Shown: positions 17,660 through 64,000 of the stretch, one piece after another
Layout: each line of letters begins with the position of its first letter
Position numbering within the stretch: the first letter of the stretch is position 1
From: the human T2T-CHM13v2.0 reference genome, Homo sapiens
Length of the DNA: 64,000 nucleotides
NCBI RefSeq assembly: GCF_009914755.1
Contig: NC_060941.1
Direction: 5' to 3' (one strand)
Notes under the pieces: model-generated
Database searches by the model: none
What the model saw: the letters and a program-made list of their open reading frames with translations, nothing else
Told to the model about the DNA's origin: nothing
Made by a program: the position numbers and the translations under genes

Positions 17660-18330
17660 CACTGAAACACTTAAAGAATCTCCTCTGCTTTCTCTCTGGT
17701 TGCTTCTAGGATCTCCTCTTTGACTTTGGTGTTCTATATTTTCACTACAATATGTCCAGACATGAATTTCTTCCTACCTATCTTGCTTGGGATTCATTGG
17801 ATCTCTAGAATCTATGCATTTGGTGGTGCTTATTAGATATGGAAAAAAAGTCAGACTTCATGTTTTCAAATATTGAATTTGTCTCGTTTTCCCTTCTCTG
17901 TCTGGAACTGCTACCTATGTTAGCTCTTCCTGTTGTATTCTCCCTGGCTCCTAACCACTTTTTTTCTTTGTTTTCTCCTCCTCCTCTTCCTCCTCCTCCT
18001 CTTCTTCTTCGTCTTCTTCTTCTTCTCCTCTCCCTCCTCCTCATCCTTCTCCTTCTCCTCCTCCTTCTTCTTCTCCTTCTCCTTGCTACTGCTGCCACCT
18101 CCTCCTCCTCCTCCTCCTCCTCCTCCTCCTCCTTCAGCTTTCTCAGGTTGAATTCTTCTTTCCCCCCTGCCCCCATTTTCCATTTATTTTTCTTTCTGGG
18201 TTGAATTCTGGATAATTTCTTCAAATCCATCTTCCAGATCATGAATTCTCTATTCAGCTTTGTCTAAACTGTCGTTTAAACTCTCCATTGAGTTTTTAAT
18301 ATGTTACTAGGTGTTAAATTTCTAGAAGCT
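17660..18330 (-). mobile_element. Ancient L1/HAL1 ORF1-region fragment hosting the microsatellite
   Basis: T-rich antisense L1-like text. The minus strand has decayed ORF1-like sequence (...CTGGAAGATGGATTTGAAGAAATTATCCAGAA...). Confidence 0.55.
17972..18135 (+). repeat. Polypyrimidine (CCT/CTT)n microsatellite
   Basis: About 160 bp of almost pure C/T triplets. Confidence 0.9.
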
Positions 18331-18724
18331 CCATTTATTTCTCCTGCACATTTGCTTAGTTCTTCTCATTCCTCACCCTTTGCTCATGTTGCTCCATCTT
18401 CTCCCACCTCTTCTCCTGGCAAATTCCTATACAACCCATTTCTTTCCATCCCCAGGGAGCTTTCCCTGACCTCCAGGATGGACTGGGGCTTTCTTGGGCC
18501 CTTCAGTCCCTGGGACTCCTTTGTCACAGCACTGATCACCTTCAGCCATGATTGGCTGGGTCTGGATCTGGATCTGCCTCCCCCCCTCAGACCTGTGCTT
18601 CTAATAAGCAGGGGCCATATCTGCATCCTCTCTCAGGGATAAGTACAGGTGGTTTTCAATAAACTTGTATAAAATAAAAGCAATTTCCTTAGCCCCCCCA
18701 TCACTCCTTAGTCTTACTTGTTGT

Positions 18725-21700
18725 TTCATTTACTTATTTTTCTTTTCTGTAAAGTATATTACTTACTGCCAGCTACATGCAATCAATTGTAAAATACTTT
18801 CAATAACTAAAAATTGAATAATGGTAAAAAAAAAAACACACATCAGCTTTCAGTATAATTTGCTTAAATTGTTCTAGAAAACACTGCTAATTTTTGTTTC
18901 TGCAGAGTGAAGTACAGAAGTGAGCAGACTGATAAATTTTTTTTTTTTTTTTTTGGAGACAGGGTCTCACTCTCTTGCCCAGGCTGGAGTGCAGTGGTGC
19001 CATCACAGCTCACTGCAGCCTTGATCTCCTGGGATCAAGTGATCCTCCTGCCTCAGCCTTCTGGGTAGCAGAGACTATAGGTGTGTGCCACCATGCCTGG
19101 CTAATTAAAAATACTTTTTTTTGTTTGTTTTTTTGTAGAAACAGGGTCTCACTATGTTGTCCATGCTGTTCTCAAACTCCTAGGCTCAAGTGATCCTCTG
19201 GCTTCGGCCTCCCAAAGTGGTGAGATTACAGGTGTGAGCCACCACACCCAGCCCAGATTGATAAATTTATAAACATCATGGAAAGAATGATAGAAAGGAA
19301 CTGGAGCCACTTGAATGACATTTGGATTCCACTTGTCATAAACCACTCCTCTTTTTTCTACCTCTTGGAAAACATCTTTCTTTGGAACAGAAAAATGTTA
19401 GTGTCAGCTGGCAGCCCTGATCCTCCATATGGGATGGAGTAATGGTCACCTCCAGGTCACCATTGGCTTCTTAGATTCTGCTTTATTTTTGCCATAGCAG
19501 TGCTAGATCAGGTATTCCAGATAACCAGTCAGCAAAATAGATTTTCTCCACAATGCTTTAATCGCTGCCTGCCTAAAGATCTCTAAACTGTAAGAAACAG
19601 ACCAACAAAATGGGAGGATTTGAAATTTGGAATCCACTAACCCCAGGGATTAACTGCAGTTGGTTATCCATCTCAAATCTGGTGCTGAGTTCACAGCCAA
19701 ACCACCCCAGCAGCACAGCTTTAATCATACGGGCATGCTTTTCATGGAAAAAGTACCTGCCAGACCTCCTGCTCCTGCATTCAAATTATTGTGGGAACAC
19801 CAGTGGGCAAAGTCAACTCTTCTGTCACGTAAGTGAGTTCAGCATTTCCAACTGTACATGCTAGATCAAGCCAGCAAAACATCCCTTCACTTGTCCAGCT
19901 TTCGTGGTAGCAGGTATATTAAAGAGCTGCCTAGTATAAAAATGCAGCCCACTGAACAGGATTGCTGTAATTGAGCCTCCTCCCTTCTCAATTGCTTCAG
20001 GGATATCCTTTATTTTATTTTATTTATTTATTTATTTTTCTCAGATGGAGTCCTGCTGTGTCACCCAGGCTGGAGTGCAGTGACGCTATCTTGACTCACT
20101 GCAACCTCCACCTCCTGGGTTCAAGTGATTCTCCTGTCTCAGCCTCCTGGGTAGCTGGGATTACAGGCATGCATCACCACACCCAGCTAATTTTTCTTTT
20201 TTTTTTTTTTTTGAGACGAAATCTCTCTCTTGTCCCCCAGGCTGGAGTGCAATGGCACGATCTCAGCTCACTGCAACCTCCACCTCCCGGGTTCAAGCGA
20301 TTCTCTTGCCTCAGCCTCCAGAGTAGCTGGGATTACAGGCGCCTGCCACGACGCCCACGCCCAGCTAATTTTTGTACTTTTAGTAGAGACGGGGTTTCAC
20401 CGTGTTGGCCAGGCTGGTCTCAAACTCCTGACCTCTGGTGATCCACCGGCCTCGGCCTCTCAAAGTGCTGGGATTACAGGCATGAGCCACCGCGCCCGGC
20501 CAATATCCTTTATTCTTAAGGTTTCCTCCCCCGTCTTGGCTTTATAATCCCCTTTCCTCAATGTTAACTCCATGGAGTCGTAGCTGTGACTCAACAGTAT
20601 AATGATTAAAAGAGAAAGCTTTGGCTTCTATAAGAATTTTATACCATTTGGTATAGGCTTAAACAATAACTGGACTAAGGCTGGGCGCGGTGGCTCACAC
20701 CTGTAATCCAAGGAGTTCGAGACCAGCCTGTGCAACATGGCAAGACCCCATCTCTACAAAAAAATACAAAAATTAGTCTGGCGTGGTGGTGTGTGCCTGT
20801 AGTCCCAGCTACCTGGGAGGTTAAGATGGGAGGATCACCTGAGCCCGGGAAGTTGAGGCTGCAGTGAGCTGTGATTGTGCCACTGCACTCCAGCCTGGAC
20901 AACAGAGTGAGACCCTGGGTAACAGTAGAAGATGTAGATTAACAGTCAGCGCATTCACTAGGGCTATTTCTTTCTCGTAGGCTCCTATAGTCCTTCTGTA
21001 GGCCTACAATACTCTCATCTCTGTATCCCAAGGATGCTGCCTTCTTCGTGACCATAGGCTCCCATTTTGCCCCACTCAACTAGCTCTTCTTCAAGATCTG
21101 TTTTAACCATTTTTGGTTGAAGGCCAAGAGGATTTTCCAGGAAATAGATAGCATTTTCATCCTTATTCACTAAAGATAAATCAACTGGAGGCAGATCCTG
21201 CATTTTGGGGACATAAAAATACTCCCCAGCTGGGCACGGTGGCTCACGCCTGTAATCTGAGCACTTTAGGAGGCCGAGGTGGAAGGACCACTTGAGGCCA
21301 GGAGTTTGAGAGCAGCCTGGGCAACAAAGCAAGACCCCCTCTCTGGAAAAAAATTAAAAAATTAGCCGGCATAGTGGTGCAAGCCTGTGATCCCAGCTAC
21401 TGAGGAGGCTGAGGTGGGAGAATCCCTTGAGCCCAAGAGTTCCAGGCTGCAGTGAATCAAGACCGCACAACTGCAGTCAGCCTGGGTGACGGAGTGAGGC
21501 CCTGTCTCAAAAAAATTAAAAACAAACAAACAAAAAAACCTCCCTGAAGTGCCTTAGCTTATGTTCCTGAACTAGGTGGAAACTGTCCCTGTCATCTGCT
21601 TGGCGGCATTTGAGTTCAACCATCATGCTCTGCACTGTGACAGCTGACAAATTGTTCTCGGCTAGAATTCTTATGTGATCCTCAGCTCCCAGAACCCCTC

Positions 21701-63500: not shown

Positions 63501-63520
63501 AAGAAAAATAAGTAAATGAA
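60510..63520 (+). pseudogene. KYNUP: Processed KYNU pseudogene (mirror copy)
   Basis: Same as the left copy. Terminal TAG at 63354-63356. The PLP-lysine motif SYKYLNAG reads SHNNLNAG (AAT at 62452-62454). Alu TSDs AATAAAGGATAT (~61734/62228) and AAATTTATCA (~62974/63304). Confidence 0.95.
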
Positions 63521-64000
63521 ACAACAAGTAAGACTAAGGAGTGATGGGGGGGCTAAGGAAATTGCTTTTATTTTATACAAGTTTATTGAAAACCACCTGT
63601 ACTTATCCCTGAGAGAGGATGCAGATATGGCCCCTGCTTATTAGAAGCACAGGTCTGAGGGGGGGAGGCAGATCCAGATCCAGACCCAGCCAATCATGGC
63701 TGAAGGTGATCAGTGCTGTGACAAAGGAGTCCCAGGGACTGAAGGGCCCAAGAAAGCCCCAGTCCATCCTGGAGGTCAGGGAAAGCTCCCTGGGGATGGA
63801 AAGAAATGGGTTGTATAGGAATTTGCCAGGAGAAGAGGTGGGAGAAGATGGAGCAACATGAGCAAAGGGTGAGGAATGAGAAGAACTAAGCAAATGTGCA
63901 GGAGAAATAAATGGAGCTTCTAGAAATTTAACACCTGGTAACATATTAAAAACTCAATGGAGAGTTTAAACGACAGTTTAGACAAAGCTGAATAGAGAAT

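What the first reader, a model, noticed from the sequence alone, without database searches (positions are those of the whole stretch)
18245..64000. Giant near-perfect palindrome (arms >=22.7 kb, spacer ~410 bp) centred on a convergent U3 gene pair
Seen: the arms mirror each other to the window edge. By eye I found only 12 differences in the outer ~21.8 kb: substitutions at 18308, 19072, 19248, 23528, 33514 and 38353, and indels near 18830, 18940, 20351, 27505, 33322 and 37060. Even the 26-27-nt poly(A) tracts at 28639 and 32533 and the 630-bp minisatellite match. Known: such identity in palindromes reflects arm-to-arm gene conversion or very recent origin, and short-spacer palindromes promote hairpins/cruciforms, inversions and isodicentric rearrangement. 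Inference: this is an autosomal analogue of Y-type palindromes that duplicates an essential RNA gene with all its regulatory elements. Both arms carry the KYNU-pseudogene flank, which may be a haplotype- or species-specific layout.
Basis: partly seen in the sequence, partly recalled or inferred. Interest (0 to 1): 0.8.

Follow-up and report, generated by a model that had tools for sequence, protein, structure and literature searches.

The report
Known i(17q) palindrome around U3 genes
This is a real, roughly 97-kb near-perfect DNA palindrome on human chromosome 17p11.2 centred on two U3 small nucleolar RNA genes, and it matches the long-described REPA/REPB repeat cluster where the cancer-associated isochromosome 17q breaks, so it is genuine but not new.

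Summary
With the flanks fetched, each arm is about 48.2 kb (window -7269..40943 and 41321..89506, 99.75%) around a 377-bp spacer.

The palindrome is part of a 212-kb cluster: two 38-kb direct repeats, three copies of the 40-48-kb arm unit, and all five best-scoring U3 genes in the genome. Size, layout and position beside GRAPL match the REPA/REPB "large (38-49 kb) palindromic low-copy repeats" of the i(17q) breakpoint cluster (Barbouti 2004; Carvalho and Lupski 2008). I saw those two papers only through citing papers.

Details seen here:
- Arm divergence is U-shaped.
- Paralog sharing is mosaic (chi-square p = 1.4e-7), so at least one interparalog exchange of 16 kb or more occurred.
- The U3 genes diverge more than the 1-20 kb of arm beside them.
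- The outer junction suggests a microhomology template switch seeded by an older 3.5-kb U3 palindrome.

Verdict: real, already known, low interest.

The parts
1..40943 (.). Left arm (my label B2). The whole window portion is arm, and it continues outside the window to -7269 (chr17:19,088,731). Total about 48.2 kb.
   Evidence: Single minus-strand BLAST alignment, -7269..40943 against 89506..41321, 99.747% over 48,241 columns. The in-window part was confirmed.
40944..41320 (.). 377-bp non-palindromic spacer. Its left ~170 bp looks Alu-like by eye.
   Evidence: Arm alignment ends at 40943 and 41321. The spacer is 377/377 identical to the reverse complement of the spacer in the upstream SNORD3B-1/B-2 palindrome, and is not self-complementary (86 matches in 556 columns).
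41321..64000 (.). Right arm (my label B3). It continues outside the window to 89506 (chr17:19,185,506), 153 bp inside the annotated EPN2 transcript.
   Evidence: The EPN2 start at 89353 comes from the hub's annotation.
40017..40233 (+). SNORD3A (U3 snoRNA gene), 217 nt. It has two private substitutions (40099 A, 40149 T) relative to the other four cluster copies.
   Evidence: Rfam RF00012, 192.3 bits. Five-copy alignment.
42015..42225 (-). SNORD3C (U3 snoRNA gene), 211 nt. It has one private substitution and a private 6-nt deletion in the apical 3' hairpin.
   Evidence: Rfam RF00012, 181.5 bits. Five-copy alignment. The refolded 3' domain has the same minimum free energy, -32.3 against -32.1 kcal/mol.
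40683..40943 (-). Innermost arm segment made of two tandem antisense Alu-like units. The mirrored copy is 41321-41582. The last 27 bp (the Alu head) differ between sides at 7 columns.
   Evidence: TRF period 134, 1.9 copies, 40701-40948. Sequence shown. Side-specific columns 40917-40939. The Alu identification is by eye and from recall of the Alu consensus, not from a repeat library.
19300..39900 (.). Near-identical zone of the arms, about 1-21.6 kb from the spacer. The mirrored partner is about 42360-62950. There are only 3 substitutions in the 1-20 kb bin.
19674..21226 (-). KYNUP2, a kynureninase pseudogene fragment. The mirrored copy is KYNUP3 at 61022-62568 (+).
   Evidence: Hub annotation. 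Three of 6 stop-free pieces match TIGR01814 kynureninase at profile positions 16-63, 111-141 and 157-201 (E = 7e-8, 2e-4, 5e-7), far below the family cut-off. All three frames of each annotated exon contain stops.
25553..26196 (.). 15-bp-unit minisatellite, 43.7 copies, identical in both arms. The mirrored copy is about 56052-56696.
   Evidence: No arm difference lies between 23528 and 27525.
7719..14638 (-). lncRNA LOC102724624, inside the left arm. Its mirror position, 67607-74526, matches LOC388436 (67622..75594 +) in the right arm.
   Evidence: Hub annotation plus the arm alignment.

Best explanation
The finding is the central part of a ~96.8-kb palindromic segmental duplication on chr17p11.2 (T2T chr17:19,088,731-19,185,506). 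It has two ~48.2-kb arms at 99.75% identity and a 377-bp spacer.

**The cluster.** The palindrome belongs to a 212-kb repeat cluster. The unit labels below are mine, given in reference order.
- A1: 38 kb.
- B1: 39.9 kb.
- A2: 38 kb.
- B2: 48.2 kb, inverted.
- Spacer, then B3: 48.2 kb.

**How it acts (from the literature, not shown here).** The oppositely oriented arms are substrates for homologous exchange between sister chromatids, possibly after a break at a hairpin. [quoted passage not shown] Directly oriented copies undergo unequal exchange, which makes the locus copy-number variable.

**How the near-identity is kept (inferred from this sequence).** The copies are young, at 0.02-0.13% divergence. 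In addition, at least one long interparalog exchange or conversion has occurred, and arm-to-arm homogenisation is seen only about 1-20 kb from the spacer.

**U3 genes.** The U3 pair sits at the centre because the big palindrome grew out of an older 3.5-kb U3 inverted repeat. There is no sign that the palindrome protects the genes.
For: **Structure**
- window; the mirror of 14000-18244 lies at 64001-68242; full arms and all other units.
- Unit sizes are 38,058 and 48,241 aligned columns. The literature gives 'large (38-49 kb)' repeats in a '~240 kb' region of 17p11.2 named REPA and REPB (passages).

**Link between the locus and the literature**
- ider(17q)/i(17q) breakpoints are reported in GRAPL and GRAP, 'within this breakpoint cluster region' (passages).
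- GRAPL lies at window -55110..-19090 (hub annotation), which spans B1 and A2.
- The five best U3 hits in the genome are all in this cluster.

**Mechanism passages**.

**Not a fold-back artefact**
- The arms differ by 44 substitutions and 29 indel events.
- The two U3 copies are distinct.

**Interparalog exchange**
- Site patterns among B1, B2 and B3 change by zone. At 0-1 kb the counts are 10/2/0 for B3-odd/B2-odd/B1-odd. At 1-20 kb they are 2/1/8. At 20-39.85 kb they are 1/15/4.
- Chi-square is 37.5, p = 1.4e-7, and 0 of 20,000 permutations reached it.

**Hairpin potential**: 886 nt across the centre folds as DNA to -391.3 kcal/mol, against -130.2 +/- 6.6 for shuffles. The z-score is -39.8, and 0 of 20 shuffles fold as well.
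Against: - I could not read the primary descriptions. Barbouti 2004, Carvalho and Lupski 2008 and Gao 1997 are not held. The equation with REPA/REPB therefore rests on size, layout, chromosomal band and gene neighbours as reported by citing papers, not on coordinates or sequence.
- The cluster measures 212 kb, not 240 kb. The quoted figure may refer to the sequenced interval.
- The published copy numbering may differ from my labels, and the locus is reported to be copy-number variable, so this haplotype may not be the one originally drawn.
- A 377-bp spacer is long for cruciform extrusion from duplex DNA (general knowledge). The hairpin step of the published model is postulated, not shown.
Confidence: 0.9

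Rival explanations
1. Assembly fold-back artefact: one arm is a spurious inverted copy made by the assembler.
For: Near-perfect palindromes with short spacers are a known assembly hazard (general knowledge). I could not inspect reads or depth.
Against: - The arms differ at 44 substitutions and 29 indel events.
- They carry different U3 variants, each annotated with its own RefSeq record (hub annotation).
- A third copy and two REPA copies form a coherent layout.
- Papers from 2004-2008, based on earlier clone sequencing and fibre-FISH, describe palindromic 38-49 kb repeats in this band (passages).
Confidence: 0.01
2. Pure recent duplication: the identity reflects only young age, with no gene conversion or exchange since the copies formed.
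For: - All pairwise divergences are tiny and of similar size: 0.058-0.126% mismatches.
- Naive ages come to 0.16-1.3 Myr at an assumed 0.5e-9 per bp per year.
Against: - One duplication history predicts a single tree along the whole unit. Instead, B2=B3 dominates at 1-20 kb (8 of 11 sites) and B1=B3 dominates at 20-39.85 kb (15 of 20 sites). The p-value is 1.4e-7.
- Substitution density differs by zone: 3 in 19 kb against 29 in 28.2 kb, binomial P = 1.2e-4.
- A1-A2 (0.126%) is twice as diverged as B1-B3 (0.058%), even though both pairs would date from the same tandem duplication.
Confidence: 0.08
3. Y-type 'self-repairing' palindrome: selection maintains the structure so that arm-to-arm conversion preserves the essential U3 genes.
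For: - U3 is essential (general knowledge).
- The arms are nearly identical 1-20 kb from the spacer, even at 26-27-nt poly(A) tracts and a 644-bp minisatellite.
- The promoter and 3' flanks of the two U3 genes are identical.
Against: - The U3 genes are the least homogenised part. They show 3 substitutions plus a 6-nt indel in 217 bp, with Poisson P = 6.5e-6 at the neighbouring 1-20 kb rate.
- Every one of these changes is private to SNORD3A or SNORD3C. The other three copies (3B-1, 3B-2, 3D) are identical and score higher against Rfam, 199.2 against 192.3 and 181.5 bits.
- SNORD3D sits outside any large palindrome.
- The locus is reported to vary in copy number between people (passages).
Confidence: 0.05

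Closest known systems
REPA/REPB palindromic low-copy repeats of the i(17q) breakpoint cluster, 17p11.2 (Barbouti et al. 2004; Carvalho and Lupski 2008; both seen only as citations and through citing passages)
   Same: - Same chromosomal band.
- Two repeat families of 38 kb and 48 kb, against the published '38-49 kb'.
- A palindromic arrangement.
- A cluster a little over 200 kb, against the published '~240 kb'.
- GRAP/GRAPL as neighbours in which i(17q)-type breakpoints are reported.
   Different: Nothing was found that contradicts the match. This T2T haplotype gives base-level arm ends, a 377-bp spacer and paralog variants. I cannot say whether the original papers reported any of these, because they are not held.
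Large palindromes of the human Y (P1-P8) and X chromosomes (Jackson et al. 2021, PMC8327919; abstract and passages read)
   Same: - Arms well above 8 kb, identity above 99%, and a short spacer.
- The same two NAHR outcomes apply: spacer inversion, or dicentric plus acentric products.
- Irregularity is concentrated at the centre of symmetry.
   Different: - It is autosomal.
- It carries snoRNA genes, pseudogenes and lncRNAs rather than testis-expressed protein-coding families.
- A third, non-palindromic copy is as similar to one arm as the arms are to each other.
- There is no evidence of deep conservation.
[quoted passage not shown]
   Same: U3 genes clustered at 17p11.2 in inverted repeats. 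Here there are two convergent pairs and one solitary gene.
   Different: I cannot compare details, because the text was not available.
Other autosomal palindromic segmental duplications linked to rearrangement (16p13.3 palindrome, GOLGA8 at 15q13.3; seen only in a search listing and a reference list)
   Same: Inverted, highly identical duplications that predispose to recurrent rearrangement.
   Different: Different loci and gene content. They were not examined here.

Membership tests
REPA/REPB i(17q) breakpoint-cluster low-copy repeats | Located in 17p11.2, in the interval containing GRAP/GRAPL | tested here: met
   The window is chr17:19.096-19.160 Mb and GRAPL lies at -55110..-19090 (hub annotation). 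i(17q)-type breakpoints in GRAPL/GRAP are stated to lie in the Barbouti cluster region.
REPA/REPB i(17q) breakpoint-cluster low-copy repeats | Two repeat families of about 38-49 kb | tested here: met
   Direct repeats of 38,058 columns (99.764%). Arm units of 48,241 columns (99.747%), plus a 39.9-kb third copy. The published sizes come from passages.
REPA/REPB i(17q) breakpoint-cluster low-copy repeats | Palindromic (inverted) arrangement of copies | tested here: met
   B2 and B3 are inverted around a 377-bp spacer. The A1 end and B1 form a 3.5-kb-arm palindrome.
REPA/REPB i(17q) breakpoint-cluster low-copy repeats | Identity of sequence or coordinates with the published BAC contig | not testable with these tools
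   The primary papers and their accessions are not held.
REPA/REPB i(17q) breakpoint-cluster low-copy repeats | Tumour i(17q) breakpoints map inside the repeats | not testable with these tools
   This needs tumour data. Only literature statements were seen.
Large sex-chromosome-type palindrome (operational definition used for X and Y) | Inverted arms of 8 kb or more with over 99% identity, separated by a spacer | tested here: met
   48.2-kb arms, 99.747% identity, 377-bp spacer. The arm range of 8-140 kb and identities above 99% come from Jackson 2021 passages.
Large sex-chromosome-type palindrome (operational definition used for X and Y) | Ongoing arm-to-arm gene conversion | tested here: inconclusive
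   The arms agree against the third copy at 8 of 11 informative sites 1-20 kb from the spacer. At 20-39.85 kb they agree at only 4 of 20. With a single haplotype, the timing and direction cannot be determined.
Large sex-chromosome-type palindrome (operational definition used for X and Y) | Arms carry testis-biased protein-coding gene families | tested here: not met
   The annotated content of the arms is snoRNA genes, KYNU pseudogenes and lncRNAs (hub annotation).
U3 snoRNA (Rfam RF00012) | Full-length match above the gathering score of 34 bits | tested here: met
   192.3 and 181.5 bits, covering model positions 1-219.

The most novel reading that the evidence does not exclude
**Origin of the large palindrome.** The 96.8-kb palindrome may have been born from the older 3.5-kb U3 palindrome by a replication template switch.
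1. A fork passed through the A2 unit and the spacer and stalled 16 bp into the Alu head of the small palindrome.
2. It re-primed on the opposite strand at a short GC-rich microhomology in the EPN2 CpG island. Five bases match perfectly at the join, within an imperfect ~15-bp match.
3. It copied the B unit backwards through the spacer and through at least 626 bp of the A2 end.
4. It then resolved by homologous recombination.

This model accounts for four observations:
- the hybrid outer junction;
- the inverted but 377/377-identical spacer;
- the right arm's innermost ~626 bp carrying variants otherwise seen only in the A2 end, at 40318, 40539, 40760 and the poly-T tract;
- the side-specific Alu-head columns 40917-40939.

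**U3 genes as mutation hot spots.** The two U3 genes at the centre may also be local mutation hot spots, perhaps transcription-associated, that escape the homogenisation acting on the next 20 kb.

I could not check whether either point is already in the primary papers.
Probability: 0.2. Interest if true: 0.4.

Novelty: already known. Interest (0 to 1): 0.2.

Why it matters
According to the reviews read, i(17q) is a common recurrent rearrangement in human neoplasms, and it arises at large palindromic low-copy repeats in 17p11.2. This structure matches those repeats. The same cluster holds all five top-scoring U3 snoRNA genes in the genome.

The structure is medically relevant, but that relevance is already established. 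What a complete haplotype adds is modest: exact arm ends, the spacer, and a paralog-variant map. That map could be used to place tumour and germline exchange points and to compare human haplotypes and apes.

Tried and rejected
**Literature that could not be read.** Barbouti 2004, Carvalho and Lupski 2008, Gao 1997 and the chromosome 17 sequence paper, under a PMC id I recalled, are not held. What those papers say about junctions, origin or primate age is unknown to me.

**Literature searches that found nothing more specific.**
- REPA + REPB + isochromosome returned 14 papers. I opened four (PMC8021031, PMC2583991, PMC3778886, PMC4149211) and all four concern this locus; most other titles concern fungi or other organisms.
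- REPA + REPB + NAHR + 17p11.2 returned 4 papers.
- SNORD3A / SNORD3C / SNORD3B-1 / palindrome returned 15 papers. None of the 12 listed titles or abstract openings concerns genome structure.
- i17q / long-read / palindrom / segmental duplication returned 222 papers, 10 listed, with no occurrence of 'i17q' in any of the 10.
- The Paraphase paper has no occurrence of 'GRAPL'.
- The 2025 segmental-duplication survey has no occurrence of '17p11.2'.

**Other dead ends.**
- The spacer as an internal palindrome was rejected: 86 matches in 556 columns against its own reverse complement.
- The 6-nt deletion as disabling SNORD3C was not supported by folding. The 3' domain refolds at -32.3 against -32.1 kcal/mol, with the terminal stem kept. 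Expression was not tested.
- No comparison with GRCh38, pangenome haplotypes or ape assemblies was possible with the collections on hand.
- No repeat-family library was available, so the Alu calls are by eye plus copy counts. The junction Alu has 61 hits in the 240 kb.

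
Full report
**1.

Self-comparison of the window on the opposite strand gives one alignment, 18245-40943 against 64000-41321. It is 99.727% identical over 22,713 columns, with 15 mismatches and 12 gap openings. The repeat finder sees the same region as six collinear perfect blocks of 598-7,189 nt.

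The substitutions are at 18308, 19072, 19248, 23528, 33514 and 38353. The indels are at 18825, 18936, 20351-56, about 27525, 33322 and 37060.

The hypermutable tracts also match:
- The poly(A) runs at 28639 (26 nt) and 32533 (27 nt) have equal-length partners at 53576 and 49681.
- The minisatellite (25553-26196, 15-bp unit, 43.7 copies) contains no arm difference.

Rfam confirms the convergent U3 pair at 40017-40233 (+, 192.3 bits) and 42015-42225 (-, 181.5 bits). Three of 6 translated pieces of the annotated KYNUP2 exons hit kynureninase TIGR01814 at collinear profile positions, and every frame contains stops.

**2.

The spacer is 377 bp (40944-41320). The innermost 927 bp of the arms carry 16 further difference events.

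The arms are cut off by the window. The window's own genome was searchable, and the mirror of 14000-18244 lies at window 64001-68242. After fetching 176 kb of flanks, a self-comparison of 240 kb shows the left arm at -7269..40943 and the right arm at 41321..89506. They are 99.747% identical over 48,241 columns, with 39 mismatches and 28 gap openings. The palindrome therefore spans about 96.8 kb (chr17:19,088,731-19,185,506).

The outer 1.2 kb of each arm is CpG-island-like, with GC 0.63 and CpG observed/expected 0.70. The right arm ends 153 bp inside the annotated EPN2 transcript. The left arm therefore carries a second copy of the EPN2 5' region.

**3. The wider layout (the labels are mine).**

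| Unit | Window coordinates | Orientation and notes |
|---|---|---|
| A1 | -122928..-84880 | direct repeat of A2 |
| B1 | -84891..-44964 (39.9 kb) | same orientation as the right arm |
| A2 | -45278..-7254 | 99.764% identical to A1 over 38,058 columns |
| B2 | -7269..40943 | the left arm, inverted |
| spacer | 40944..41320 | 377 bp |
| B3 | 41321..89506 | the right arm |

- The last 3.5 kb of each A unit is an inverted copy of the first 3.5 kb of a B unit. A1 and B1 therefore form a small palindrome around SNORD3B-1 and SNORD3B-2. SNORD3D sits alone at the end of A2.
- The B1/A2 junction lies in a 315-bp Alu that is 99.4% identical to the corresponding Alu in B2 and B3 and 94.4% identical to the Alu at the start of A1. 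This fits an Alu-mediated tandem duplication of a ~77.6-kb A+B unit.
- The whole cluster spans 212.4 kb.
- A genome-wide Rfam U3 search scored 50 candidates. The top five (199.2, 199.2, 199.2, 192.3 and 181.5 bits) are the five genes of this cluster. The next best hit scores 165.6 bits and the remaining 45 are dispersed.

**4. Identity with a known structure.**

Held papers describe the breakpoint cluster of the isodicentric i(17q) in 17p11.2 as follows:
- It is a ~240-kb region with 'large (38-49 kb)' palindromic or cruciform low-copy repeats named REPA and REPB (passages in PMC1352149; abstract and passages in PMC8021031).
- These repeats mediate somatic NAHR that produces the dicentric i(17q), and also frequent meiotic NAHR that makes the locus highly variable between populations (passages in PMC2583991; PMC3778886).
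- SNP-array breakpoints of ider(17q) lie in GRAPL and GRAP, 'within this breakpoint cluster region' (passages in PMC4069034). GRAPL spans my B1/A2 units according to the hub annotation.

My measured 38-kb and 48-kb units, the palindromic arrangement, the band and the neighbouring genes all fit. I could not open the three primary papers, so the match is by description, not by coordinates.

**5. How it works.**

From the literature, homologous exchange between oppositely oriented arms has two outcomes. On sister chromatids it gives a dicentric plus an acentric product. Within one chromatid it flips the spacer. Exchange between direct copies changes copy number.

Shown here: single-stranded DNA across the centre folds into a continuous stem with the spacer as the loop. 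The energy is -391.3 kcal/mol, against -130.2 +/- 6.6 for shuffles (z = -39.8; 0 of 20 shuffles fold as well). Whether such hairpins form in cells is not shown here. A 377-bp loop is long for cruciform extrusion from duplex DNA (general knowledge).

**6. Why the arms are so alike.**

Divergence along the arms is U-shaped:

| Distance from spacer | Substitutions |
|---|---|
| 0-1 kb | 12 |
| 1-20 kb | 3 |
| 20-30 kb | 6 |
| 30-40 kb | 10 |
| 40-48.2 kb | 13 |

The total is 44 substitutions and 29 indel events. The contrast between 1-20 kb and 20-48.2 kb has binomial P = 1.2e-4.

Using B1 as a third copy over the shared 39.85 kb gives 43 informative gap-free sites. Columns with a gap were dropped:

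| Zone | B3 odd | B2 odd | B1 odd |
|---|---|---|---|
| 0-1 kb | 10 | 2 | 0 |
| 1-20 kb | 2 | 1 | 8 |
| 20-39.85 kb | 1 | 15 | 4 |

Chi-square is 37.5 with p = 1.4e-7, and 0 of 20,000 permutations reached it.

The arms are each other's closest relatives only in the 1-20 kb zone. Further out, the right arm is closest to the direct copy 126 kb away. Whichever duplication came last, at least one exchange or conversion tract of about 16-19 kb is needed. The switch lies about 19.6-21.9 kb from the spacer, around the KYNU pseudogene.

Overall mismatch rates are all similar and low:
- B1-B3: 0.058%
- B2-B3: 0.081%
- B1-B2: 0.096%
- A1-A2: 0.126%

Naive ages are 0.16-1.3 Myr at an assumed 0.5e-9 per bp per year. 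The palindromic form is therefore not what sets this pair apart.

**7. The centre.**

A five-copy alignment of the inner 3.5 kb breaks the high inner divergence into three parts:
1. Seven columns in the last 27 bp (the Alu head) are side-specific. The A1 end, the A2 end and B3 agree with each other, and B1 and B2 agree with each other.
2. Variants at 40318, 40539, 40760 and the poly-T length are shared only by the right arm and the A2 end.
3. Private changes sit inside the U3 genes. SNORD3A has two substitutions. SNORD3C has one substitution and a 6-nt deletion.

The other three U3 genes are identical across the gene. Three substitutions in 217 bp is unlikely at the rate of the adjoining 1-20 kb (Poisson P = 6.5e-6). 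The deletion shortens the apical 3' hairpin but leaves the terminal stem and the predicted energy unchanged.

The spacer is 377/377 identical to the reverse complement of the A1/B1 spacer, and matches the reverse complement of the A2 spacer at 374 of 379 columns. So B2, the spacer and the inner part of B3 together form an inverted copy of A-end, spacer and B.

**8. Inferred origin (inference, not shown).**

At the left outer junction, A2 and its spacer are followed by 16 bp of the B-type Alu head, and then directly by the reverse complement of the right arm's outer end. The two parental sequences share a short GC-rich microhomology there. Five bases match perfectly at the join, inside an imperfect match of about 15 bp.

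Together with point 7, this fits a replication template switch that began at the small U3 palindrome and copied the B unit backwards. I rate this model at roughly 0.3 as an account of origin. I cannot say whether it is already in print.

**9. Verdict.**

The structure is real, larger than reported, and biologically important, but it is the well-described REPA/REPB palindrome. The idea that the palindrome safeguards U3 is not supported. Novelty: already known. Interest: low.

Noticed in passing
outside the window: -7269..-6070 (left arm outer end), mirrored at 88307..89506: The EPN2 5' CpG-island region is duplicated at the outer end of the left arm (GC 0.63, CpG observed/expected 0.70, and the first 153 bp of the annotated transcript). 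The copy points toward SNORD3D. No gene is annotated on the duplicated copy in the hub table.
   Followed up: partly
outside the window: -45278..-44964 (B1/A2 junction) and -122928..-122610 (start of A1): The junction of the ~77.6-kb tandem unit lies in a 315-bp Alu. It is 99.4% identical to the B-unit Alu and 94.4% identical to the Alu at the start of A1, which suggests an Alu-mediated unequal exchange. The start of A1 also shows a local duplication of a ~100-bp segment plus an Alu.
   Followed up: partly
window about 10110-10870 (left arm), 30.07-30.83 kb from the spacer: Six substitutions private to the left arm cluster within about 760 bp. The cluster overlaps the annotated exons 10455-10616 and 10775-10868 of lncRNA LOC102724624. 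This could be a short conversion tract from a more diverged donor, or a local hot spot.
   Followed up: no
genome-wide: Beyond the five cluster genes, 45 further U3-like loci score 74.9-165.6 bits and are dispersed over many chromosomes. They are presumably pseudogenes or retrocopies. The count is a lower bound, because only 50 candidates were scored.
   Followed up: no
window 41572-42747: RefSeq 'enhancer' features are annotated only on the right-arm side of the centre, although the left arm holds a near-identical mirror sequence. This is probably an annotation or mapping asymmetry in duplicated sequence.
   Followed up: no
window 37060-37088 / 45154-45181 and 40666-40693: Of the five long homopolymer runs (20 nt or more) in the in-window left arm, three are equal in length between arms (26, 27 and 26 nt). 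One differs by 1 nt (29 against 28). The poly-T next to the inner Alu differs by 17 nt (28 against 11).
   Followed up: yes
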